Source of the DNA: Escherichia virus ESCO5
Lineage: Duplodnaviria > Heunggongvirae > Uroviricota > Caudoviricetes
Length of the DNA: 64,000 nucleotides
IMG/VR virus record: IMGVR_UViG_2974610597_000001
Strand: one strand, 5' to 3'
Shown here: positions 4,535 through 35,016 of the stretch, one piece after another
Layout of the letters: each line of letters begins with the position of its first letter
How positions within the stretch are numbered: position 1 is the stretch's first letter
Notes under the pieces: generated by a model
The model's database searches: none
What the model was told of the DNA's origin: nothing
What the model saw: only the letters and a program-made list of their open reading frames with translations
Translations under genes and position numbers: made by a program

Positions 4535-5022
4535 TGGAAAGTGAGATCTTACCAGGTGATGATACGGATTGGGAAACCATTATCAAAAAGATGATGGACC
4601 TTGAACAAGTTCAAATCGAAGCTGGTTTTTTAACAAACAAAAGGCATCCTGAATCAGATCTCACTATTCCTGCAATAGCAGCTATTCAACAATATGGTAA
4701 TGAAACAAATAACATACCTGCTCGCCCTTTTATAACAGATGGCGCTGTTATCTCACAGAACAATATCGCTAAAAAGATGAAGCAGGTGTTTGCAAATTAC
4801 TTAATGAATAATGTCGGGTTAGCTGTTTTTGAGCCTATAGCGAGAGCCTCTAGAGAAGGAATAGCTCAAGCGATTGCAATGCAACGTTATCGTCCTTTAT
4901 CTCCTGTGACAATTAAGATACGACAAGATAAAGGCAACTATTCTAATCATATCTTAATAGATACGGCACACATGATAAATGCAATCGAAACAAAAATCAC
5001 AAAAAGCAAGTCTAAAAAATAA
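4534..5022 (+). CDS. putative neck or tail-completion protein
   Basis: 162 aa; start overlaps the upstream stop (ATGA); position between head and tail genes. Confidence 0.4.
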   Translation: MESEILPGDDTDWETIIKKMMDLEQVQIEAGFLTNKRHPESDLTIPAIAAIQQYGNETNNIPARPFITDGAVISQNNIAKKMKQVFANYLMNNVGLAVFEPIARASREGIAQAIAMQRYRPLSPVTIKIRQDKGNYSNHILIDTAHMINAIETKITKSKSKK

Positions 5023-6149: not shown

Positions 6150-7523
6150 ATGGCAACTTTTCGTGAAAAGGTAGCAACCGTAACTTTACTGTATGGTGCT
6201 ACATCAATTCGTGAAACCCAGTTCGATATTCCTCTGATCCTTACAGGTCAGAACGTAACTGGCGAAGCGATTCAATATTACTCTTCTTCCGATGCACTTT
6301 TGGAAGCAGGTTATGGATTAAATGATCCAGCGTATATTATGGCAGTCAAACTGTTTAACGGTTTGTTCCCACCAGATCAAGTCATGGTTGGTAAGCGTGA
6401 AGTTACAAACTTTACTCTAACTCCAATCGTAGAAGATAGTGCAACTTACACAATTACCATCAAAAATGGTACCAAGAAAAAAGAATTTAAATTCATTGCT
6501 GATGACACTGCAACTGCACAAGAGATTGTAGTTGGTCTGACTGAAATGATCAATGCAGATCTTGTTTATGGCCCACTGTTTACAGTAGCTAACAACGGCG
6601 CTGCAATGACTTTCACTCCAGTAGAAGGTAAGTTTGGTTCTATTGACAGCACAGGTTTCACTCAAGAAACTGTCTATGCTAATGCTATTACGGAAGATAT
6701 TGCTGCTCTGCATGATATTGATAGTAGCTGGTTCTGGACCCTTTCAGATTCCCATGAAACAGAAGATATTCTAGCTTTGGCTGCATGGGTAGAAGAGAAT
6801 GATAAAGTTTACTTCTTCTCTAGTTCTGAACCTGGAATTAAAACGAAAGCAGAAGATAACGTTCTGGAACGACTGAATGACCTCGGTTATAATAACACTT
6901 GCTTTGCATTGTGGATGACCGATGCAGATTCTGTATTCCCAGAAGCAGCAGTTGTTGGTGCTATCTGTTCTCGTCAACCTGGTTTAACTACCCTTCACGG
7001 TAAAACACTGGTAGGCGTAGAGATCGAGAAACTGGATCAGACTTCGGAAAACAATATTGTTCAACAGAACGGTAACATCTATCGTAAAGAGCATGGAACT
7101 CTGTTCTATCGTGATGGATTGATGGTTAGCGGTTTCTTTGTTGACTATGTTGTTCATGCTTTGTGGTTTAAAGCTCGCACAGAAGAATCACTGTTTACAC
7201 TGTTTAAACAACAGTCTATGCTGGGTGGTGGTGTTCGTGCTACTTCAAACGGTCTGGCTTTGATTCGACAAGCTGTTCTGGCTAACCCGATCCAAGTAGG
7301 TATCCTCAACGGTTCCATCGCTAATGAAGTTGTTACTTCTGAAGAGACTGGTTTGCGTGTCGATCTGAAACCTATTGTTTATATTCCTTCTCGTGCCGAT
7401 ATGACCGATGCGCAAATCAATGCTCGTCTGGTTGATGGGATGAAGATTGAATATGTTTACGCTGGCTTCTTCCATTACGTTAAAGTTCAGGTCAACGTCC
7501 TGACTAACCGTACTGCAAACTAA
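6150..7523 (+). CDS. tail sheath protein
   Basis: 457 aa, followed in order by tube, frameshifted chaperone pair and tape measure, the canonical contractile-tail arrangement. Confidence 0.7.
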   Translation: MATFREKVATVTLLYGATSIRETQFDIPLILTGQNVTGEAIQYYSSSDALLEAGYGLNDPAYIMAVKLFNGLFPPDQVMVGKREVTNFTLTPIVEDSATYTITIKNGTKKKEFKFIADDTATAQEIVVGLTEMINADLVYGPLFTVANNGAAMTFTPVEGKFGSIDSTGFTQETVYANAITEDIAALHDIDSSWFWTLSDSHETEDILALAAWVEENDKVYFFSSSEPGIKTKAEDNVLERLNDLGYNNTCFALWMTDADSVFPEAAVVGAICSRQPGLTTLHGKTLVGVEIEKLDQTSENNIVQQNGNIYRKEHGTLFYRDGLMVSGFFVDYVVHALWFKARTEESLFTLFKQQSMLGGGVRATSNGLALIRQAVLANPIQVGILNGSIANEVVTSEETGLRVDLKPIVYIPSRADMTDAQINARLVDGMKIEYVYAGFFHYVKVQVNVLTNRTAN

Positions 7524-7525
7524 TA

Positions 7526-7548
7526 CGGCGGGGGTTAAGCCCCCGTTA
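7526..7548 (+). other. GC-rich hairpin after the sheath gene (possible RNA stabiliser or weak terminator)
   Basis: CGGGGG (7529-7534), loop TTAAG, CCCCCG (7540-7545); no clear U-tract follows. Confidence 0.35.
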
Positions 7549-7569
7549 TCAAAATAAAGAGGATCTATA

Positions 7570-8049
7570 ATGGATAAAATGCTTACTGGCGTAATGGCCT
7601 ACGACCCATCTCAAGTTATCCTTTCATTAGGTGGTTGGGAACCGTGGGGTTTTGCGGCTGATACTAAAATCGTTATTGCTAAATCTAACGATATTATCAA
7701 CCCTTATTCAGGGACTGATGGGGACGTTTCATTAGCTTTGAGTCGTAACCGTTTGGGAACACTCACAATGTCTTTGCAACGCACATCTCCAGCTAACGAA
7801 GTACTTGCAACATATGCACAAACAATGTATTCTACTCGTCAAGTAGCATTCAGTGTTTACTTGGAAGACCCACGTGGCTATTACATTAGCACGATTGGAT
7901 GGATTCAAAGTCAGCCTGAAGATACTATTGGCGAAATGATTACAGAGAACCAATGGGTTATTGGTCTTAAAGATGCAAGCCTTCTGCGTAATGAAGTTGG
8001 TGTAGGTTTGAGCACCCTTAACTCAATCTCTGCTCTGACAATTCAATAA
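7570..8049 (+). CDS. tail tube protein
   Basis: 159 aa immediately downstream of the sheath gene and upstream of the chaperone genes. Confidence 0.65.
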   Translation: MDKMLTGVMAYDPSQVILSLGGWEPWGFAADTKIVIAKSNDIINPYSGTDGDVSLALSRNRLGTLTMSLQRTSPANEVLATYAQTMYSTRQVAFSVYLEDPRGYYISTIGWIQSQPEDTIGEMITENQWVIGLKDASLLRNEVGVGLSTLNSISALTIQ

Positions 8050-8055
8050 TAAATA

Positions 8056-8077
8056 AAGGGCAGAAATGCCCTTTTTA
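8056..8077 (+). terminator. rho-independent terminator
   Basis: AAGGGCA (8056-8062), GAAA loop, TGCCCTT (8067-8073), then TTTTT. Confidence 0.65.
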
Positions 8078-8094
8078 TCATTAGAGAGGAAAAT

Positions 8095-8577
8095 ATGTCA
8101 CAAGAACAAGATAACACAATTCAAAAATATGCTCGACCAGAAGAAGTAGTTGAGATTCCGTTAGATGGAAACAGATCTGTTACTTTCCGTATTATGAAGT
8201 GGAGTCCATCTAAAGTGTTTGACAGGATTCCAGAATTGGGTAGTGTTCTGGTTGTTCCTATGACTATGTATAGCACAGCAACAATGTCCGCAGACGAAGA
8301 CCTTGAGTCACGTATTGCTATGGCACTGATCCAACTTTTTGCAGGTTTGGAAGAAAAGAATTTAACTGTCTTTTTGCGTAAAATTTTAGATGAGGTTTAT
8401 ACTCAAGACGGTTATAACGTTGCAGAAAATTTTGATGAATTATTTATGGCTCACCCAGAACTAGTGTTAGATCTTACTGCTAAAGTTCTGGAGGTAAACT
8501 ACGGCCCTTTTTTCAAACGAGGTTTCGGAAAACTGTTCACACAGCTTCAGGCGATGACGAGTTTAGCAGCAAATTAA
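8095..8577 (+). CDS. tail assembly chaperone (gpG-like)
   Basis: 160 aa between tube and tape measure; overlapped at its 3' end by an open -1 frame. Confidence 0.6.
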   Translation: MSQEQDNTIQKYARPEEVVEIPLDGNRSVTFRIMKWSPSKVFDRIPELGSVLVVPMTMYSTATMSADEDLESRIAMALIQLFAGLEEKNLTVFLRKILDEVYTQDGYNVAENFDELFMAHPELVLDLTAKVLEVNYGPFFKRGFGKLFTQLQAMTSLAAN

Positions 8578-8843
8578 CACCTGCGATTGAACATGCTATC
8601 GACACAGCAACGAAAACCCTTACTTTGAAGTGGTATGAGGTTATTCTTTGCAAAGTCGTTAAAGATACCTCGGAAACACTGAAAACATTGGATAACTACG
8701 GTGTAGATTATCTTTTAAAACTATATGAGTATTTAACATACGAAGAGTATGTTGAAGCCATGTATGTTAAAGACACTTCAATAAAGAGAAAACATCAAAA
8801 CCAGACAAATAAAATGTCAGATTTGTTTAAGAAACTTGTTTAA
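8484..8843 (+). CDS. tail assembly chaperone C-terminal extension (gpGT-like, reached by -1 frameshift)
   Basis: The -1 frame is open from 8484 to the stop at 8841-8843; the listed ORF 8625..8843 is its tail end and starts at TTG with no good RBS. Confidence 0.5.
   Translation, partial: SSGGKLRPFFQTRFRKTVHTASGDDEFSSKLTPAIEHAIDTATKTLTLKWYEVILCKVVKDTSETLKTLDNYGVDYLLKLYEYLTYEEYVEAMYVKDTSIKRKHQNQTNKMSDLFKKLV
8508..8514 (+). promoter_or_regulatory. candidate -1 ribosomal frameshift slippery heptamer T_TTT_TTC
   Basis: X_XXY_YYZ heptamer in the zero frame of the chaperone ORF, inside the 94-nt overlap with the -1 frame. Confidence 0.5.
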
Positions 8844-8863
8844 TCCAACACGAGGAACATACT

Positions 8864-10852
8864 TTGTTAGAAATTAACGCCTCCAAAATTAGTAACGTGG
8901 TTACGTTTAAGGTGGACAAGAACAGTCTCAAGGAAGCAAAAGATGCCGTGTTGAGTGTTCAGAAGTTTGCAAATAAAATGCAACCCACTATGAACATGAC
9001 CAAGTTTAGACAACAAATGAAAGAGATTGAGCGTGAACTTAAGAAAGCTCAAACTCAAAGTCAAAAACCTATGCGAGCACCTACTCCCGCTGGAGCGGGT
9101 GCTCCTGTAGGCGGATCTGGCAGACCTAGAACTCCTAAAACCCCGCAAGGAAGAGAAGAAGAAAAAGCTCGTAAAGCTGCTGAACGCGAAGCTAAAGCAG
9201 CAGCACGTAGGGAAGACTTAGGTAATCTTCGTTTGCAGAACTTTAACTATCGAGCAAGAGCATTTAGTAAAGCCAGTCCTGGCGCTATGCAAGAAGCTAG
9301 AGACGTTATGGGTAAAGCTGTAGAGCAATACAAAAAGGGTGAAATAACTCTTCAACGTATGAACCAAGCTCTTGCTCACCAGTTAGATGCTTTACGCAGA
9401 TCGCATCGTGAAAAGAATGCTGAAATAGAAGACGAGGTTCGTGGTCGCCGTCGTATTCGTAGAGAGCTAGAAGCAGAAGCTAAAACCCGTATACGTATGC
9501 GAAATCGTGAACTTAGAGATATAGAACGCAACCGTAAGCGTGAATTAGCTCAACAAAGACGTGATCGTGATCGTCGATATGGACAATTAAAAGAAGGTGC
9601 GGCAGGTCTTAATCCACGCATGATTGCATCCTCTTTGATCGGTGCTGGGTTATTTGCAGGGGGTTCTGTAGTTGGTAACACTTTGATGAATACTAACGAA
9701 AGGATTAAACTTGTAAGCCGTGGTGCTGAAAACGTTCAGACAAACGCCAACGCTATTTTGGCAATGACAGCTTGGGGTGAACAGAACGGTGTAGACTCTG
9801 CAAATATTATTAAGTCAATAGATAATATTAAAGACGTTCGTGAACGTCTTGGTAATACAGTTTTAGCCTCAAAATGGAATGAGAAAGAAGGGAAGTGGAA
9901 AGGCGGTGATAATGGCATAAATGACATTATGAACTTGTTTGGATGGAATCCAGAACAGCTTAAACCTTTACAGAACGATCCTTTGGCTTTTATTCAGGCT
10001 ACTGTTAATGAAGGTGAGCGTCGAGGTATGAACTCTGCTCAAATCGGGCGACTTCTTGAAAACCTTGGTGATGACCTTATGCACTACCAACGTATGTTTA
10101 GTAAAAACGGCGAAGGGTATAATGAAGTATTGAAAATGCTTCAAAGAACAGGTGCAACATTAACTCAAGAACAAATAGATGCTTCTAAAGAGTTTACTCG
10201 TTTTGCTGCAACAGTTCAGCTTGTAGGTCAAGGTATGCAGAACCATTTCTTAGAGGGTTTTGTGAAAGCCTTACCTAAAGATGATTCTTGGTTGGATAAC
10301 GTTAAAGTGCTAGATCAGTTTGCCAAAGATTTAGGTGAAGAACTTGGTAAGACAACAGTTCAATTAGGAGGTTTTGCTAAAGAATTGGGAGATGGTTTCG
10401 GATCTTTTACCAATTGGCTTAAAGAGACATTCCCAGACACCTTCGGAGACAACACAGATCCTAATAAATCTATGGCACAAAAGGCATATGAGGCAACGCA
10501 AAGTGGAGACAGCAATCCTGTAGCAGATTGGTTGTACAATTTAACAGGTATTGATACACAAGATGTTGGTCGTATGTGGAGAGGAGAACAAACAAGGACA
10601 CGTGCTTTTGGATTTGGTAATCCTCTTGAAGATTTACGTGAATCAGCCTATACACCTAACGTAAGTTTGGCTCGTAATCAACCTATTGTTGAGAATACGG
10701 TAGCAATACCAAGTGATCTTATCAAAGTTACGATCAGCCCTTCTTCAGAGTTTGGAAATATTCTTGATGCAAGAATTCAAAATAGCGGAAATAGCATTTT
10801 CCAACGTTTATCTCTTTCAACTCTAAGTGGACAATCTAACACTGGTGGTTAA
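8864..10852 (+). CDS. tail tape measure protein
   Basis: 662 aa; Arg/Lys/Glu-rich coiled-coil N-terminal half and Gly-rich hydrophobic segment; follows the chaperone pair; TTG start after GAGGA. Confidence 0.8.
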   Translation: MLEINASKISNVVTFKVDKNSLKEAKDAVLSVQKFANKMQPTMNMTKFRQQMKEIERELKKAQTQSQKPMRAPTPAGAGAPVGGSGRPRTPKTPQGREEEKARKAAEREAKAAARREDLGNLRLQNFNYRARAFSKASPGAMQEARDVMGKAVEQYKKGEITLQRMNQALAHQLDALRRSHREKNAEIEDEVRGRRRIRRELEAEAKTRIRMRNRELRDIERNRKRELAQQRRDRDRRYGQLKEGAAGLNPRMIASSLIGAGLFAGGSVVGNTLMNTNERIKLVSRGAENVQTNANAILAMTAWGEQNGVDSANIIKSIDNIKDVRERLGNTVLASKWNEKEGKWKGGDNGINDIMNLFGWNPEQLKPLQNDPLAFIQATVNEGERRGMNSAQIGRLLENLGDDLMHYQRMFSKNGEGYNEVLKMLQRTGATLTQEQIDASKEFTRFAATVQLVGQGMQNHFLEGFVKALPKDDSWLDNVKVLDQFAKDLGEELGKTTVQLGGFAKELGDGFGSFTNWLKETFPDTFGDNTDPNKSMAQKAYEATQSGDSNPVADWLYNLTGIDTQDVGRMWRGEQTRTRAFGFGNPLEDLRESAYTPNVSLARNQPIVENTVAIPSDLIKVTISPSSEFGNILDARIQNSGNSIFQRLSLSTLSGQSNTGG

Positions 10853-10859
10853 TAAAATA

Positions 10860-10881
10860 CCTCGCTTCGGCGGGGTTTTTT
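10860..10881 (+). terminator. rho-independent terminator
   Basis: CCTCGC, TTCG loop, GCGGGG (one G-U pair), then TTTTTT at 10876-10881. Confidence 0.7.
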
Positions 10882-10889
10882 CGTTTCCC

Positions 10890-10919
10890 TTGACACAAAG
10901 TTTCTATATGTGTTACAAT
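10890..10919 (+). promoter_or_regulatory. sigma70-like promoter (TTGACA - 17 bp - TTACAAT)
   Basis: -35 at 10890-10895 and -10 at 10913-10919, immediately after the terminator and upstream of the baseplate genes. Confidence 0.45.
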
Positions 10920-10978
10920 AATCAATATGGGAAGATCTTGCATCTTCCTTTTGGCATTATCATTACTACGAGGTTATC

Positions 10979-11680
10979 ATGGCAGCAATGACTCCACAAC
11001 AGTCGGTGAGAGCCGTCTATAAGGCAGAACAGGAAATCAACTCTACCGAGAATAAAAATACCTCGGCATCTACTGTAAAGGGTGATAATGGTTTCTGCAT
11101 TTTAGCAAGTGTTTATAATAGTTCAAGTGATCAATACATTCAAAACTTTAAAGCAATTACTTTCGATTCGGTCCCTGAAGTAGGTGTAACTCGTGAGGCA
11201 GATGTTACAAGTTTTCCAGTAGAATCAGGATCGGATGTAAGTGACCACGTTCAAATAAAAAACAACAGATTTAAACTTTCAGGTATAATTACCGAAACAC
11301 CAATTCGGCTTATGCGAGATCAATTATACAGTGCAGGTGTAAATGGAGCAAGGATTTCTCAAGCAATAGAATATCTAGATCAAATATTTGAGTCAAGACA
11401 ACCAATAGTTCTTTTGACAGAACACAGGACTTTTGAAAATGTTATTCTGAAAGGCTACTCTTATGATTATAAATCTGAATTTGCTATGCAATTTGATTTA
11501 GAGTTCGAACAAATTCGTCTAGTCTCTAAGGCCACTACTAATGCTATTGCTGTAAAAACAGCACCAAATAAGTCAACTGGTGGTGATGTGAAAGGTCAAG
11601 TCGCTTCTAATGGTCCTAAGTCAGATATTACAGTAAGAACTGCTGAAGCTACTAATACCCCAACAAACAACGGAGGTTAA
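10979..11680 (+). CDS. tail or baseplate-associated structural protein
   Basis: 233-aa ORF, first gene after the tape measure; by position only. Confidence 0.4.
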   Translation: MAAMTPQQSVRAVYKAEQEINSTENKNTSASTVKGDNGFCILASVYNSSSDQYIQNFKAITFDSVPEVGVTREADVTSFPVESGSDVSDHVQIKNNRFKLSGIITETPIRLMRDQLYSAGVNGARISQAIEYLDQIFESRQPIVLLTEHRTFENVILKGYSYDYKSEFAMQFDLEFEQIRLVSKATTNAIAVKTAPNKSTGGDVKGQVASNGPKSDITVRTAEATNTPTNNGG

Positions 11681-13851: not shown

Positions 13852-14478
13852 ATGGGAATCCCTTTTGACTTAAAACTTGGGCCAAACAACGACCTCATCA
13901 TGGATGATGGGGATTTGGTCCTCACTACAACCAGAACAGAAATTGCAGCACAAACTCTTGGGATAACTCTGAACACGTATCGTGGAGAGTGGTTTTTAAA
14001 TACTAACTTCGGTGTTCCTTACTTACAAGAGATTATTGGTGTTGCTAGAAAGAAAGATATTGTAGACAGAATATTTTTAGCAGAGATTGCCAAAAACGTT
14101 TACATAGATACAATAAACAGTTATAAATCTGCTTATGACATGGATCAACGTTATTACTCAATGACAGTTATGGTGACAGTTGGAGCAGATACAGTAACAT
14201 CCATATTCAATACTCAACCTTCTGAAGAGTTTATTTACCCTGAAGCTGGTGAAGACAATGCAGCGATCATTTGTGAAGCTTACAGTATTGTTGAGAATTC
14301 GAATAGACTTTATCGCTTTATCAACTTTGTTGGTTTGCCACGTGATACCTACTCTACTTGGTGGAATGAATGGTCTACAGAGTCAGCAGGGGAAAGAATC
14401 ATGGTTAACGAAAAAGGTGATGCATTAGCTACAAACAATAATTTCGGTATAACAGCTATGACAGGAGTAGAAGAATAA
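13852..14478 (+). CDS. baseplate wedge protein (gpW/gp25-like)
   Basis: N-terminal segment EIAAQTLGITLNTYRGEWFLNTNFGVPYLQEI resembles the gp25/GPW signature; directly follows the spike gene. Confidence 0.5.
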   Translation: MGIPFDLKLGPNNDLIMDDGDLVLTTTRTEIAAQTLGITLNTYRGEWFLNTNFGVPYLQEIIGVARKKDIVDRIFLAEIAKNVYIDTINSYKSAYDMDQRYYSMTVMVTVGADTVTSIFNTQPSEEFIYPEAGEDNAAIICEAYSIVENSNRLYRFINFVGLPRDTYSTWWNEWSTESAGERIMVNEKGDALATNNNFGITAMTGVEE

Positions 14479-32343: not shown

Positions 32344-35016
32344 ATGTTTCCAATTCCAATATTTACTATTATGACCAGCACTGGTGTCGTTCCTCTGCCA
32401 GCAGGTATTGTTAAAAAAGTAATCACTCTAGATTACCCAGATAATGCTGGCAATTCTAATAGCAGTTTAGCAATTTTGCTTAATGATGGTAGATTGTTTA
32501 CTCAAGGCGCAAACCTTTTTGGTGAGATTGCAGATGGAACTCGTAGTGCACGATTCAATAATTTCCACTTAGCTTCTACTGTAGTAGCGGATGTGTTTAC
32601 CGCAGATCGTTGTTTTGTTATTAAAACTAACAGTGGGGGATGGCAATATTCAGGATTGACAGCAGGGTTGGTAGGATCTATAGCAGCAGGTGGTACGGAT
32701 GCATGTGTAACTACTTGGACCAGCTTTCCATCTGTAATAACAGGGACTATCTCTTTAGCCAATCTTAAAGAGGTTAAGGGAGGATATAACAACACTCTCT
32801 GGTTGATGAATAGTGGTGTTCTTTATGGATCAGGTCAAAACACAGTAGGCAGTTTAGGTGCAAGTACTACTAACGAAGTTTCTACTCCTCGTCAGATAAC
32901 AAGTGCAGCAGTTGCTTTTGATGCAGGTTACAACCAATGCTCTTATGTCAACAATGTGGGAACCTTGCGTGTTTGTGGGGCTAGTAAAGGTTTAGCAGGT
33001 AATAATAACACAACAACAGCTTTTGTCAATGCCAAGATATCCGCTACTGAAACAGTGTATGTCAAAGATTACATCAATACAGTTTCCCAGACAATAGTTG
33101 TAGGAGATACCTCCGGTGGCACGGGTACAGTAAACTACTTATATGTTAGATCTAATACAGAAACAACCTACACTAAACTGGACACCTTTGCAGCAGGTTT
33201 CTCAACATGGAAATTTCCACCAAGCCGCCACTCTTTTTTCGTTGGGATCAATAATTCCTTGTGGGCTATTGGTAAGAACTACACTGCAAACTTAGGTTTG
33301 GGGTATGATTCTGCGAGCGGAGATCCACTCCAAGTGGGAAAACCAGTTAAACCTGAAGGAGTGGGTTCCTGGGATATAAACAAGCTCACAAGCGTTCATA
33401 CACTGAATATGGATGTTACTAACCAATTAGGTTATCAAGGAACCTTTTTCGTTTATAATGGAGATATGTATTATTCAGGTATTTGGAAAGATGGGAAAGC
33501 CTCGTATCTGTTCAATAGTGGTCTAAACTATAATAAATTCACACCAATAGCAAGCTCCGTGATTACAGGGGATGTTCTGGCAACTGGCTTAACTACAGAT
33601 TCTTTAGGAATTTGTATTGTAGGTGGAACTAAACAGTTGACACATTCTGTTAGCCCAGAAGGAGGTAAACTTTTCAATATTAAATACACTTCTTCTGCCC
33701 CTGCAAACATGACAATATCATCTACTGGTTTAATGACTTTCCATGCAGAAGGTGGTTTTGATGCAGGTATGACAGCCTTAAACGCTGAAGGAACAATTTT
33801 ATCAGATACCTCTGGAGGATATGCTTCAACATTGAGTGTTTACACCCCTAGCTTATCTGCGATGGATGTAGGAACAACACAAACAATGGTAGCAGAAATA
33901 ACACCAACAGGAGCAGCAAGCTTACCTGATATGGTTGTTGAGTATACAACTACAGATCCTAATGTTGCTACAGTAGATCCTACAACTGGTGTAATAACTG
34001 GTGTTGGTGATGGTGGTTGTAGGATTGGTTGCACAGCTACGTATCAAGGTGTTGTTACCGCTTCTGATAGTTCTTATTTAACGGTGAATGCTGTTGCGGG
34101 AAAGGAGTTAGCTCCATCTCCGAGTAGTAGTTTAACGGTTCTAAACGGATATTTCAACCACTCGGCAGATGGGGCAATTACGTTCCCAACTTTATCGGGT
34201 ACTGTTACACCAGCTAACTTTGTAGTTAAGGTGGATGACGTTGTAGTTCCTTCAAGTAAAGTAATATTTAGAAACAAAGCTTTCTCTACAGTGGATAGTT
34301 ATCCAGCAGGAGAATATAGACTGGCTATTGAATTTGCAAGTGCTTCAGTAGTTAATAGTGTGGAAGTGTCTATGGAAGCAAACCCAAGTCTTTTAGAACT
34401 TTGGGGCGGTAATAGAATCAGTTATTCTACAAGCCCAGCCTCACAATTCTTAAAAGGTTGTGCTAACTTAAGACGAATAACTTCTGATTGTTTTAGTAAC
34501 ACATCTTACACCGGAACATCTATAAGCGGTATCTTCTCTGGCTGCACAAGTTTGACAGCTATCCCTGAAGGATTATTCAGTGATGCTTTATTTCCTTCAA
34601 TGACAACAATGTCAAGCACGTTTGAAGGTTGTACATCTTTAACATCTATTCCTTCAGATTTATTTAAGAATCTGTCAAAAGTTACAAGATATTCTTACAC
34701 CTTTAAAGATTGCACCTCTCTTGCAGAAGTTCCAGCAGGAATGTTTGATAATATTCCAACGAAAGTGACCTCTTTAACAGCTACATTCCAAGGTTGTTTA
34801 GGACTTACAGATTTTAATAAGATCTTTAATGACAACCCAGGGTTAACTGTTTGTGGTAAACGTGGAGCATTATCTTCTTTCTTTAGTGGATGCACAAATC
34901 TTACAGGAACAGGAACAACATTAACAAATACATTAGGCGGAGTAGCTAATAGTTACCTATTCAGGTATTGCACAAAACTTTCTGATTATAACAACATTCC
35001 TTCCGGTTATAAATAA
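32344..35016 (+). CDS. tail fibre or receptor-binding protein with Ig-like (Big_2-type) domain and C-terminal BspA-type leucine-rich repeats
   Basis: 890 aa; Big_2-like segment (TTTDPNVATVDPTTGVITGVGDGGCRIGCTATYQGVVTA); five or six C-terminal F.GCTSLT.IP..LF repeats. Confidence 0.55.
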   Translation: MFPIPIFTIMTSTGVVPLPAGIVKKVITLDYPDNAGNSNSSLAILLNDGRLFTQGANLFGEIADGTRSARFNNFHLASTVVADVFTADRCFVIKTNSGGWQYSGLTAGLVGSIAAGGTDACVTTWTSFPSVITGTISLANLKEVKGGYNNTLWLMNSGVLYGSGQNTVGSLGASTTNEVSTPRQITSAAVAFDAGYNQCSYVNNVGTLRVCGASKGLAGNNNTTTAFVNAKISATETVYVKDYINTVSQTIVVGDTSGGTGTVNYLYVRSNTETTYTKLDTFAAGFSTWKFPPSRHSFFVGINNSLWAIGKNYTANLGLGYDSASGDPLQVGKPVKPEGVGSWDINKLTSVHTLNMDVTNQLGYQGTFFVYNGDMYYSGIWKDGKASYLFNSGLNYNKFTPIASSVITGDVLATGLTTDSLGICIVGGTKQLTHSVSPEGGKLFNIKYTSSAPANMTISSTGLMTFHAEGGFDAGMTALNAEGTILSDTSGGYASTLSVYTPSLSAMDVGTTQTMVAEITPTGAASLPDMVVEYTTTDPNVATVDPTTGVITGVGDGGCRIGCTATYQGVVTASDSSYLTVNAVAGKELAPSPSSSLTVLNGYFNHSADGAITFPTLSGTVTPANFVVKVDDVVVPSSKVIFRNKAFSTVDSYPAGEYRLAIEFASASVVNSVEVSMEANPSLLELWGGNRISYSTSPASQFLKGCANLRRITSDCFSNTSYTGTSISGIFSGCTSLTAIPEGLFSDALFPSMTTMSSTFEGCTSLTSIPSDLFKNLSKVTRYSYTFKDCTSLAEVPAGMFDNIPTKVTSLTATFQGCLGLTDFNKIFNDNPGLTVCGKRGALSSFFSGCTNLTGTGTTLTNTLGGVANSYLFRYCTKLSDYNNIPSGYK

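What the first reader, a model, noticed from the sequence alone, without database searches (positions are those of the whole stretch)
8484..8843. Programmed -1 frameshift joining the two tail assembly chaperone ORFs
Between tube and tape measure genes, the 160-aa chaperone ORF is overlapped for 94 nt by a -1 frame that stays open to 8843. The overlap contains the heptamer T_TTT_TTC at 8508-8514. This matches the conserved G/GT-type frameshift of tailed phages and would give a roughly 250-aa fusion. The annotated downstream ORF starts at TTG with no RBS, consistent with expression only by frameshifting.
Basis: partly seen in the sequence, partly recalled or inferred. Interest (0 to 1): 0.5.

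Follow-up and report, generated by a model that had tools for sequence, protein, structure and literature searches.

The report
Tail chaperone -1 ribosomal frameshift site
This is the ordinary, widely conserved "G/GT-type" programmed -1 ribosomal frameshift that lets a myovirus (E. coli phage ESCO5, a phAPEC8-like phage) make a short and a long tail assembly chaperone from one gene; it is real and missing from the database annotation, but it is not a new kind of thing.

Summary
The window is Escherichia phage ESCO5 (Phapecoctavirus). Between tube (7570-8049) and tape measure (8864-10852) lies a 160-aa Pfam Phage_TAC_15 chaperone gene (8095-8577). Its last 94 nt overlap a -1 frame open from 8484 to 8843. 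T_TTT_TTC sits in register at 8508-8514, and a second in-register heptamer, C_CCT_TTT, at 8505-8511. A slip gives a 249-aa fusion (…NYGPFF|QTRFRK…).

Comparison with 40+ relatives (TAC identity 100% down to ~21%) is decisive:
- The heptamer is invariant in register in nearly all.
- The -1 ORF (77-92 codons past the stop) is always open and ends just before the tape measure gene; the +1 frame is closed.
- The -1 ORF has a coding substitution pattern.
- Conserved -1-frame residues, including R-F-R kept with four different Arg codons, begin 2-4 codons after the heptamer, upstream of any start codon.

No 3' RNA structure is supported. A Shine-Dalgarno-like GGAGGT (8490-8495), 12 nt upstream, is a likely stimulator.

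The homologous site is already annotated as a frameshift in Felix O1-like phage Moogle. A 2025 paper proposes one at a similar poly-T motif in Pakpunavirus relatives. Verdict: new member of a known kind, low interest.

The parts
8055..8074 (+). Terminator-like hairpin plus T tract between the tube gene and the chaperone gene (context; it probably lowers expression of the chaperone/TMP unit relative to sheath and tube)
   Evidence: Consensus scan. Terminators are annotated in this 3.5-kb stretch (window 7500-11000) in the phAPEC8 and ASO2A records, exact positions not checked. Function is inferred.
8095..8577 (+). Zero-frame tail assembly chaperone gene (TAC-N, gpG analogue), 160 aa, ATG start with GAGAGG RBS at 8084-8089
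   Evidence: Pfam PF21822 Phage_TAC_15 E=1.3e-23 and phrog_3840 'tail assembly chaperone' E=2.8e-55. RefSeq annotates it as tail assembly chaperone.
8490..8495 (+). Internal Shine-Dalgarno-like GGAGGT, 12 nt 5' of T_TTT_TTC and 9 nt 5' of C_CCT_TTT; candidate 5' stimulator of the -1 shift
   Evidence: Duplex with the 16S 3' end is -10.7 kcal/mol. It is the strongest anti-SD match in about 360 nt of upstream TAC sequence here and in 17 of 28 related loci. GAG is only 26% of Glu codons in the ESCO5 tail genes. The stimulatory spacing of 9-14 nt for -1 shifts comes from PMC5009743. Function is inferred; the element is absent in CB7, CR9, KpS8 and KP13-16.
8505..8514 (+). Slippery decamer C_CCT_TTT_TTC: two overlapping in-register heptamers (C_CCT_TTT 8505-8511; T_TTT_TTC 8508-8514). 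T_TTT_TTC is the one conserved across subfamilies.
   Evidence: T_TTT_TTC is in register in 13 of 15 GenBank relatives, in all 28 distinct IMG/VR loci and in Moogle. H_HH.U_UU.Y heptamers are among the most efficient in E. coli (PMC4066793).
8514..8843 (+). -1-frame continuation (linker plus T domain), 109 codons then TAA at 8841-8843. With 8095-8514 it encodes the 249-aa fusion (TAC-NC, gpGT analogue).
   Evidence: Translation. phrog_16039 E=1.2e-44. Codon-position divergence is 0.46/0.39/0.66, and the other frames carry 3-14 stops. Fusions of 212-258 aa align end to end across 15 phages.
8520..8531 (+). -1-frame codons AGG TTT CGG AAA = R-F-R-K, a conserved motif 2-4 codons after the slip site and inside the dual-coding overlap
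   Evidence: R-F-R-[KRD] is present in Stephanstirmvirinae, Vequintavirinae and Pseudomonas phage KPP10. The last Arg is encoded by CGG, CGC, AGG or CGA while the zero-frame residues change (G/A/D, F/L).
8864..10852 (+). Tape measure protein gene (TTG start, GAGGA RBS at 8852-8856), beginning 20 nt after the -1 ORF stop
   Evidence: phrog_16051 E=0; RefSeq annotation.

Best explanation
A minority of ribosomes translating the chaperone gene (8095-8577) slip back one nucleotide on C_CCU_UUU_UUC (8505-8514). The tRNA-Phe on UUC re-pairs with UUU, and the P-site tRNA-Phe (or tRNA-Pro) re-pairs one base back. These ribosomes then read CAA ACG AGG UUU CGG... in the -1 frame to the UAA at 8841-8843.

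Two proteins share residues 1-140. One is the abundant 160-aa TAC-N. The other is a rarer 249-aa TAC-NC, which carries a short linker and a roughly 75-aa T domain.

By analogy with lambda G/GT, the shared N part coats the tape measure protein. The T domain recruits the tube protein so that the tube, and then the sheath, polymerise to the right length. Neither chaperone remains in the virion.

The shift probably relies on the heptamer plus pairing of the 16S rRNA 3' end with the internal GGAGGU 12 nt upstream. No 3' RNA structure is needed.

Shown here: the ORF architecture, the heptamer and its register, the coding status of the -1 frame from just after the heptamer, the lack of an independent start, and conservation across families. 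Inferred: the slip itself, its efficiency, the role of the SD-like element, and the assembly function of the two products.
For: - Identity and context. The window is 100% identical to phage ESCO5. Gene order is sheath, tube, TAC, -1 ORF, TMP. The TAC matches Pfam PF21822 at E=1e-23.
- Heptamer conservation. T_TTT_TTC is in register inside the -1 overlap in 13 of 15 GenBank relatives spanning Stephanstirmvirinae and Vequintavirinae, with TAC identity 100% down to about 29%. It is also in all 28 distinct IMG/VR loci and in Felix O1-like Moogle. Vibrio phage S4-7 has A_AAT_TTT three codons upstream. KPP10 has G_GTT_TTT.
- ORF architecture. The -1 ORF extends 72-92 codons past the TAC stop in the GenBank relatives and 77-92 in the IMG/VR loci. 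It ends 8-57 nt before the TMP gene in 13 of the 15 GenBank loci compared; CB7 and CR9 are the exceptions, and TMP distances were not measured in the IMG/VR loci. The +1 frame is closed.
- Coding signal. Codon-position divergence in the -1 ORF is 0.46/0.39/0.66.
- No independent start. ESCO5 has only an SD-less TTG at 8625, inside the conserved domain. KpS8 has no ATG, GTG or TTG until halfway through the domain.
- -1 frame read from the heptamer. The R-F-R motif is kept with four different Arg codons directly after the heptamer, while the zero-frame residues vary.
- Overlapping constraint. Synonymous-site identity in the TAC zero frame rises from about 0.35-0.5 to 0.67-0.76 around the site.
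- Heptamer class. Both heptamers belong to the high-efficiency H_HH.U_UU.Y class in E. coli (PMC4066793).
- SD-like element. It lies within the 9-14 nt stimulatory range and is the best anti-SD site in the gene in 17 of 28 loci.
- No in-frame fusion exists. The 41 homologues of the fusion are all 158-175 aa. T-domain homologues are 55-107-aa ORFs.
- Precedent. Moogle carries a joined CDS at the homologous site.
Against: - There is no experimental evidence for this phage. No fusion protein, junction peptide or reporter assay was found in the searched literature.
- No significant 3' stimulatory structure was found. Fold z-scores were 0 or above, and there was no covariation. Efficiency may therefore be low, possibly well under a few percent.
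- The SD-like element is missing in some relatives (CB7, CR9, KpS8, KP13-16), so it cannot be essential to the family.
- The IMG/VR loci were retrieved with a peptide pattern that includes ...NYGPFF. That sample is therefore biased towards an F-F site, though not towards the particular codons.
- Neither the TAC-N model nor the T domain matches any solved structure. The assembly role rests on family annotation and analogy.
Confidence: 0.88

Rival explanations
1. Transcriptional slippage. RNA polymerase adds one extra U on the T6 run (8508-8513), so a fraction of mRNAs encode the 249-aa fusion in a single frame. The ribosome does not shift.
For: The site is a homopolymer run. Adding one U gives exactly the same protein (...PFFQTRFRK...), so peptide data cannot tell the two mechanisms apart. 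[quoted passage not shown] One metagenomic T-domain ORF, P0043 ('MALFQTRFRK'), implies a run-length variant or a homopolymer error.
Against: The run is only 6 T and is never longer in more than 40 relatives. Bacterial transcriptional slippage is described for runs of about 9 A or T (PMC5009743). Relatives keep a proper X_XXY_YYZ or tetramer site with even shorter runs: A_AAT_TTT in Vibrio S4-7 and G_GTT_TTT in KPP10. The register relative to the zero frame is invariant. A conserved SD-like element at the -1-stimulatory distance acts on ribosomes, not on RNA polymerase.
Confidence: 0.06
2. Two separate genes. The downstream ORF is translated on its own from TTG 8625 (72 aa), as several GenBank records annotate it, and no fusion is made.
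For: Many records annotate a 72-83-aa hypothetical protein here. PHROG 16039 models exactly the 72-aa form. In Hena1 and SNUABM01 an ATG overlaps the heptamer in the -1 frame, with GGAG 11 nt upstream.
Against: TTG 8625 has no SD. The annotated starts differ from phage to phage and fall inside the conserved domain. Conserved -1-frame residues (R-F-R..., TPAIEHAIDTA...) lie upstream of every candidate start, and KpS8 has none for half the domain. The -1 frame is kept open through the whole overlap in all loci. ESCO5 has no ATG, GTG or TTG within 5-13 nt of the internal SD-like element.
Confidence: 0.04
3. Chance open frame. The -1 ORF and the heptamer are coincidental and non-functional.
For: The sequence is AT-rich, so T-rich heptamers are not rare. 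Two T_TTT_TTC sites in register occur among 12,714 codons in the window.
Against: P is about 1e-4 for 119 open codons at local base composition. The arrangement is conserved over several phage subfamilies and families, with a coding substitution pattern. The other in-register heptamers hit a -1 stop after 0-13 codons.
Confidence: 0.01

Closest known systems
Citrobacter phage Moogle (Felix O1-like) 'tape measure chaperone' with annotated translational frameshift (GenBank KM236239; PMC4319497)
   Same: The site is homologous. The zero-frame peptide is the same (LEANFGSFF against LEVNYGPFF), the T_TTT_TTC heptamer is in the same register, and GGAGG lies 13 nt upstream. The -1 ORF extends 78 codons to the TMP gene, and the locus sits beside the TMP gene; whether the neighbouring gene on the other side is the tube gene was not checked.
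   Different: In Moogle the fusion is annotated as a joined CDS. In ESCO5 and every Phapecoctavirus, Justusliebigvirus and Vequintavirinae record inspected it is not. Moogle lacks the extra upstream C_CCT_TTT heptamer and the R-F-R motif. Sequence similarity between the two TACs was not scored directly.
Conserved -1 PRF with a GTTTTT motif in TAC genes of Vandenendeviridae (Pakpunavirus, Nankokuvirus) and Andersonviridae (PMC12846349, 2025)
   Same: Same Pfam family: KPP10 TAC matches PF21822 at E=9e-25. Same synteny, a poly-T slip site near the 3' end of TAC-N, an uninterrupted -1 frame to the TMP gene, and the R-F-R motif after the site.
   Different: KPP10 uses G_GTT_TTT (T5), a tetramer-type site. 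I recall this as resembling the T7 gene 10 site (from memory, not checked here). It is not a canonical X_XXY_YYZ. Stephanstirmvirinae have CCC rather than G before the T run. That paper's frameshift section, as read, covers only Vandenendeviridae and Andersonviridae.
Phage lambda G/GT (and P2) tail assembly chaperone frameshift (Levin 1993 and Xu 2004/2013/2014, as summarised in PMC5009743; the P2 gene names E/E+E' are from memory)
   Same: The gene position is immediately upstream of the TMP gene. [quoted passage not shown]
   Different: No detectable sequence similarity was found. The heptamer differs: G_GGA_AAG in lambda (from memory) against U_UUU_UUC here. This is a contractile-tail phage with a different TAC Pfam family. 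The product ratio and the binding partners are untested here.
E. coli dnaX and IS-element -1 frameshift cassettes
   Same: An internal SD-like sequence lies 9-14 nt 5' of an X_XXY_YYZ heptamer. U_UU.U_UU.C is also used by IS elements.
   Different: No 3' stem-loop or pseudoknot is detectable here. The biology is different.

Membership tests
G/GT-type tail assembly chaperone programmed -1 frameshift (Xu, Hendrix & Duda 2004 class) | The gene pair lies between the major tail (tube) gene and the tape measure gene | tested here: met
   Tube 7570-8049 (phrog_280, PF11681), TAC 8095-8577, TMP 8864-10852 (phrog_16051). RefSeq annotation agrees.
G/GT-type tail assembly chaperone programmed -1 frameshift (Xu, Hendrix & Duda 2004 class) | The upstream ORF is a tail assembly chaperone | tested here: met
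   Pfam PF21822 Phage_TAC_15 at 84 bits against a cutoff of 22; phrog_3840. The fold search against the PDB was uninformative.
G/GT-type tail assembly chaperone programmed -1 frameshift (Xu, Hendrix & Duda 2004 class) | A second ORF overlaps the 3' end in the -1 frame and has no initiation signal of its own | tested here: met
   94-nt overlap with the -1 frame open 8484-8843. There is no SD-preceded start, and conserved residues lie upstream of all candidate starts.
G/GT-type tail assembly chaperone programmed -1 frameshift (Xu, Hendrix & Duda 2004 class) | A slippery X_XXY_YYZ heptamer lies in the zero-frame register inside the overlap | tested here: met
   T_TTT_TTC at 8508-8514 and C_CCT_TTT at 8505-8511. 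Both belong to the efficient class in E. coli.
G/GT-type tail assembly chaperone programmed -1 frameshift (Xu, Hendrix & Duda 2004 class) | The two-frame arrangement and the slip site are conserved in diverged relatives | tested here: met
   15 GenBank loci, 28 distinct IMG/VR loci, KPP10 and Moogle.
G/GT-type tail assembly chaperone programmed -1 frameshift (Xu, Hendrix & Duda 2004 class) | A fusion protein is actually produced at a low fixed ratio and is required for tail assembly | not testable with these tools
   This needs a western blot or mass spectrometry, a reporter assay and genetics. No such data were found in the literature searched.
G/GT-type tail assembly chaperone programmed -1 frameshift (Xu, Hendrix & Duda 2004 class) | The chaperones are absent from mature virions | tested here: inconclusive
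   Only indirect evidence. In the CB7 annotation the sheath, tube and TMP are marked 'MS/MS confirmed' while the two chaperone ORFs are not.
SD-stimulated -1 frameshift cassette (dnaX / IS type) | An internal SD-like sequence lies 9-14 nt 5' of the shift site | tested here: met
   GGAGGT at 8490-8495, 12 nt before 8508, with a duplex energy of -10.7 kcal/mol. It is the best site in the gene in 17 of 28 loci. The spacing rule is from PMC5009743. Function is untested.
SD-stimulated -1 frameshift cassette (dnaX / IS type) | A 3' stem-loop or pseudoknot lies 5-9 nt after the heptamer | tested here: not met
   Fold z-scores ranged from -0.09 to +1.30. The alifold consensus was -2.5 and -6 kcal/mol, with no supported covariation.
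Transcriptional slippage recoding | A long homopolymeric A/T run (about 9 nt or more in bacterial examples) | tested here: not met
   The run is T6 here and in relatives, T5 in KPP10 and T4 in Vibrio S4-7. The run-length criterion is from PMC5009743.

The most novel reading that the evidence does not exclude
The signal may be a compact, ancient recoding cassette rather than a bare heptamer. It would consist of an internal Shine-Dalgarno-like element, a spacer of about 12 nt, U_UUU_UUC, and a conserved -1-frame R-F-R motif. This cassette appears to be held at the nucleotide level across Phage_TAC_15 chaperones of several myovirus subfamilies and families, even though the chaperones share only about 20-30% identity. 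In Stephanstirmvirinae it is reinforced by a second overlapping heptamer, giving the decamer C_CCU_UUU_UUC. If the SD-like pairing and the tandem heptamers really set the G:GT ratio without any 3' structure, this would be a clean natural model for 5'-only stimulated -1 frameshifting in phage morphogenesis.
Probability: 0.4. Interest if true: 0.35.

Novelty: new member of a known kind. Interest (0 to 1): 0.2.

Why it matters
The main value is for annotation. RefSeq ESCO5 leaves 8578-8863 empty, and all of the roughly 18 Phapecoctavirus, Justusliebigvirus and Vequintavirinae records inspected either omit the region or call a spurious 40-120-aa 'hypothetical protein'. These records should carry a joined ribosomal_slippage CDS for a roughly 250-aa tail assembly chaperone.

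The practical relevance is modest. phAPEC8-like and phi92-like phages are used in therapy and biocontrol cocktails and in engineering, where disturbing the T6 run or the overlap would break tail assembly.

Scientifically, it adds a deep comparative data set for one homologous frameshift site, with a probable SD-like stimulator and no 3' structure. It does not change the understanding of the mechanism.

Tried and rejected
- 3' stimulatory RNA structure. Eight single-sequence folds and two alignment folds gave no stability beyond shuffles and no covariation. Small hairpins seen by eye around GGTTTCG are not conserved. I attribute the conservation of GGTTTCG to dual coding (G-F in frame 0, R-F-R in frame -1).
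- Natural in-frame TAC-T fusions. The search with the 249-aa fusion returned only 158-175-aa TAC-N proteins. The exhaustive T-domain search returned only 55-107-aa ORFs, plus one compositional false positive, the 3956-aa acidic repeat protein P0045.
- Solved-structure homologues of TAC-N and the T domain. None were found by sequence.
- AF2 model of TAC-N. The model reached pLDDT 73.6, with a beta-hairpin plus helices and a low-confidence tail after residue 140. It had no PDB fold match better than E=0.9.
- Structure prediction of the fusion.
- Literature on a frameshift in phAPEC8, rV5, Stephanstirmvirinae or Vequintavirinae. Nothing was found. Vladimirov et al. 2022 is not held in the library.
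- A window-wide '-1 extension past stop' null. I abandoned it because ordinary overlapping neighbour genes confound it.
- tRNA genes in the window that might modulate Phe decoding. None were found.
Full report
**Identity and context**

Window 7500-11000 is 100% identical to Escherichia phage ESCO5 and vB_EcoM_REC, and 98-99% identical to about 60 other phAPEC8-like phages of the genus Phapecoctavirus, subfamily Stephanstirmvirinae. The local gene order on the + strand is:

| Gene | Coordinates | Evidence |
|---|---|---|
| Tail sheath | 6150-7523 | phrog_205 |
| Tail tube | 7570-8049 | phrog_280 / PF11681 |
| 160-aa ORF | 8095-8577 | Pfam PF21822 Phage_TAC_15 (E=1.3e-23); phrog_3840 'tail assembly chaperone' (E=2.8e-55) |
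| Tape measure protein | 8864-10852 | phrog_16051 |

RefSeq NC_047776 annotates only the 160-aa chaperone. It leaves 8578-8863 empty and has no ribosomal-slippage join. Other records call a short 'hypothetical protein' in that gap.

**Checking the observation**

- The -1 frame relative to the chaperone ORF opens after a TAA at 8481-8483 and runs from 8484 to the TAA at 8841-8843. That is 119 codons with a 94-nt overlap.
- T_TTT_TTC is at 8508-8514 in the zero-frame register, CC[T TTT TTC].
- Slipping there gives a 249-aa protein with the junction ...NYGPFF|QTRFRK....
- The first start codon in the -1 ORF is TTG at 8625, with no Shine-Dalgarno match upstream.

C_CCT_TTT at 8505-8511 is a second in-register heptamer, so the site is really the decamer C_CCT_TTT_TTC. 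A slip on either heptamer yields the same peptide.

The arrangement is more than chance would give.

- 119 open codons have P of about 1e-4 at local composition.
- About 0.11 in-register heptamers are expected in the overlap.
- The three other in-register T_TTT_TTC or C_CCT_TTT sites in the window run into a -1 stop after 0-13 codons, against 109 here.
- The +1 frame is closed.

**Comparative evidence**

tblastn with the chaperone finds 359 phage records. I fetched 14 loci spanning 82% down to about 29% identity:

- phiWec181, phi92, Klebsiella 05F01 and KP13-16;
- Avunavirus 18-1-2, rV5, SSE121, Hena1, KpS8, CB7, pEp_SNUABM01, CR9 and UPEC06;
- Vibrio S4-7.

Counting the window, that makes 15 phages. 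In 14 of the 15, T_TTT_TTC sits in the same register inside the -1 overlap. Vibrio S4-7 instead has A_AAT_TTT three codons upstream.

- In every locus the -1 ORF is open for 117-141 codons and the +1 frame is closed.
- The -1 ORF ends 8-57 nt before the tape measure gene. The exceptions are CB7 and CR9, which carry inserted DNA there.
- The deduced fusions are 212-258 aa; the 212-aa one is UPEC06, whose annotated start is truncated. They align end to end.
- A scan of IMG/VR added 28 distinct loci, all with T_TTT_TTC in register and a -1 extension of 77-92 codons where the contig allows. This scan used a peptide pattern covering ...NYGPFF, so it is biased towards an F-F site. It is not biased towards the codons NNT-TTT-TTC. 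From ESCO5 codon usage, those codons would be expected only about 13% of the time.

**The -1 frame is coding and is read from the heptamer onward**

- Downstream of the chaperone stop, pairwise divergence by -1-frame codon position is 0.46/0.39/0.66 (positions 1/2/3). This is the usual coding pattern. The other two frames carry 3-14 stops per sequence.
- Conserved T-domain residues (...TPAIEHAIDTATKTLTLKWYEV... in ESCO5) lie upstream of every candidate start codon.
- In KpS8 there is no ATG, GTG or TTG until halfway through the conserved domain.
- The motif R-F-R-[K/R/D] sits two to four codons after the heptamer. It is conserved in the -1 frame across Stephanstirmvirinae, Vequintavirinae and Pseudomonas phage KPP10. 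Its last Arg is encoded by CGG, CGC, AGG or CGA. The zero-frame residues at the same nucleotides change (G/A/D, F/L). These changes are synonymous in the -1 frame and non-synonymous in the zero frame, and they lie upstream of any start. That is what translation entering the -1 frame at the heptamer predicts.
- Synonymous-site identity in the chaperone zero frame rises from about 0.35-0.5 to 0.67-0.76 around the site.
- No in-frame fusion exists among the database homologues. The 41 homologues of the fusion are all 158-175 aa. T-domain homologues in 1.8 billion representatives are 55-107-aa ORFs, apart from one compositional false positive.

**Signals**

Sharma et al. 2014 place H_HH.U_UU.Y heptamers among the most efficient -1 motifs in E. 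coli. This class includes both U_UUU_UUC and C_CCU_UUU. The paper also notes that U_UU.U_UU.C is used by IS elements (PMC4066793).

I found no 3' stimulatory structure. Folds of the 46-141 nt around or after the site are no more stable than shuffles, with z-scores from -0.09 to +1.30. Two alignment folds show no supported covariation.

There is a Shine-Dalgarno-like GGAGGT at 8490-8495, 12 nt before T_TTT_TTC and 9 nt before C_CCT_TTT.

- Its predicted duplex with the 16S 3' end is -10.7 kcal/mol.
- It is the strongest such site in about 360 nt of upstream chaperone sequence here and in 17 of 28 related loci, Moogle included.
- It is built from L-E-V codons (CTG GAG GTN), although GAG is only 26% of Glu codons in the ESCO5 tail genes.
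- The Atkins et al. review gives 9-14 nt as the stimulatory SD-to-site spacing for -1 shifts. It notes such elements in dnaX and in about 56% of IS elements (PMC5009743).
- The element is missing in CB7, CR9, KpS8 and KP13-16, so it is a likely but non-essential enhancer. This is inference.

**Rivals**

- Transcriptional slippage would add one U and give the same protein. But the run is only T6, it is never longer in any relative, and it is replaced by T5 or T4 sites that still allow tRNA re-pairing. Bacterial slippage examples involve runs of about 9.
- Independent initiation of the downstream ORF is contradicted by the start-codon and conservation data above. In Hena1-like phages an ATG happens to overlap the heptamer in the -1 frame, which explains why gene callers produce 100-130-aa ORFs there. 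ESCO5 has no such codon.
- Chance is excluded by the conservation.

**Comparison with what is known**

This is the G/GT paradigm of long-tailed phages. In lambda, a low-level -1 shift gives about a 30:1 ratio. G and GT bind the tape measure protein, the T domain binds the tail tube protein, and neither is in the virion (PMC5009743).

The closest specific precedent is Citrobacter phage Moogle, a Felix O1-like phage. Its GenBank record has a joined 'tape measure chaperone' CDS, and its announcement mentions the frameshift. Its site is visibly homologous: LEANFGSFF, with GGAGG, 13 nt and then T_TTT_TTC.

A December 2025 paper argues for a conserved -1 PRF with an invariant GTTTTT motif in the TAC genes of Vandenendeviridae and Andersonviridae (PMC12846349). 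KPP10's TAC is in the same Pfam family and shows G_GTT_TTT followed by R-F-R-R in the -1 frame.

I found no paper or inspected GenBank record that states the frameshift for Phapecoctavirus, Justusliebigvirus or Vequintavirinae. The finding is therefore a new, unannotated member of a known kind.

**Verdict**

My confidence that a -1 ribosomal frameshift produces a 249-aa chaperone isoform is about 0.88. What remains inferred is the slip itself, its efficiency, the role of the SD-like element, and the assembly function.

Interest is low (0.2). A specialist would expect this frameshift, and its main consequence is a correction to genome annotations. The modestly more novel reading is that of an ancient cassette (SD-like element, spacer, U_UUU_UUC, R-F-R) held at the nucleotide level across families, doubled to a decamer in Stephanstirmvirinae, and working without 3' structure. 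I give that a probability of about 0.4 and an interest of 0.35 if true.

Noticed in passing
window 8055-8074 and 10859-10876 (+ strand): Terminator-like GC hairpins with T tracts bracket the chaperone/T/tape-measure unit. One lies right after the tube gene and one right after the tape measure gene. Terminators are annotated within this 3.5-kb stretch in the phAPEC8 and ASO2A records (positions not checked). rV5 annotates a promoter before its TAC and a terminator between the T ORF and the TMP gene.
   Followed up: partly
window 8578-8863: RefSeq NC_047776.2 (ESCO5) and iGC_PHA_EC001 leave this 286-nt stretch unannotated. Other records call a 72-83-aa hypothetical protein with inconsistent starts. 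None of the roughly 18 records inspected in Stephanstirmvirinae or Vequintavirinae has a slippage join.
   Followed up: yes
L009 1851 and L012 1839 (Erwinia phages Hena1, pEp_SNUABM_01); P0046: In these lineages the zero-frame G-C-F-F is encoded GGA TGT TTT TTC. This places an ATG in the -1 frame overlapping the heptamer, with GGAG 11 nt upstream. Internal initiation of a free T protein is conceivable there, and gene callers do produce ORFs of 100 aa or more.
   Followed up: partly
P0043 (metagenomic representative, 107 aa): This T-domain ORF begins 'MALFQTRFRK'. That requires a T5 rather than a T6 run in its contig, so it is either a homopolymer sequencing error or natural run-length variation at the slip site.
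   Followed up: no
L011 2223-3369 (Pectobacterium phage CB7) and L013 2193-2418 (Cronobacter phage CR9): Extra DNA separates the T ORF from the tape measure gene. In CB7 it is about 1.1 kb with two small genes, CB7_21 and CB7_22. In CR9 it is about 0.2 kb. All other relatives have a gap of only 8-57 nt.
   Followed up: no
search hits: Records named Campylobacter phage (A110a, B15, C14 and others), Acinetobacter phage vB_AbaM_ABPW7, Pseudomonas phage PsgM04F and Klebsiella phage ZCKP1 resemble E. coli Phapecoctavirus, Justusliebigvirus or rV5-like phages in this region. ABPW7 is 98.6% identical in DNA, and B15 and ZCKP1 are 100% identical in the T domain. The others match the profile of those E. 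coli phage groups. The host labels look doubtful, or the host ranges are unusually broad.
   Followed up: no
L018 5011-5017 (Pseudomonas phage KPP10): The homologous chaperone uses G_GTT_TTT, a site I recall (from memory) as resembling the T7 gene 10 frameshift site, instead of a canonical X_XXY_YYZ. It has three tandem tube-like genes upstream, and its -1 ORF overlaps the TMP start.
   Followed up: partly
window 33234-33240, 4725-4731, 13860-13866: These are other in-register slippery heptamers (T_TTT_TTC once, C_CCT_TTT twice) inside long ORFs. All reach a -1 stop within 0-13 codons, so they are probably incidental.
   Followed up: yes
L004 464-556 (phage phi92 record): The phi92 RefSeq record annotates a 'Hypothetical tRNA' inside the tail sheath coding sequence. 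This is almost certainly an annotation artefact.
   Followed up: no
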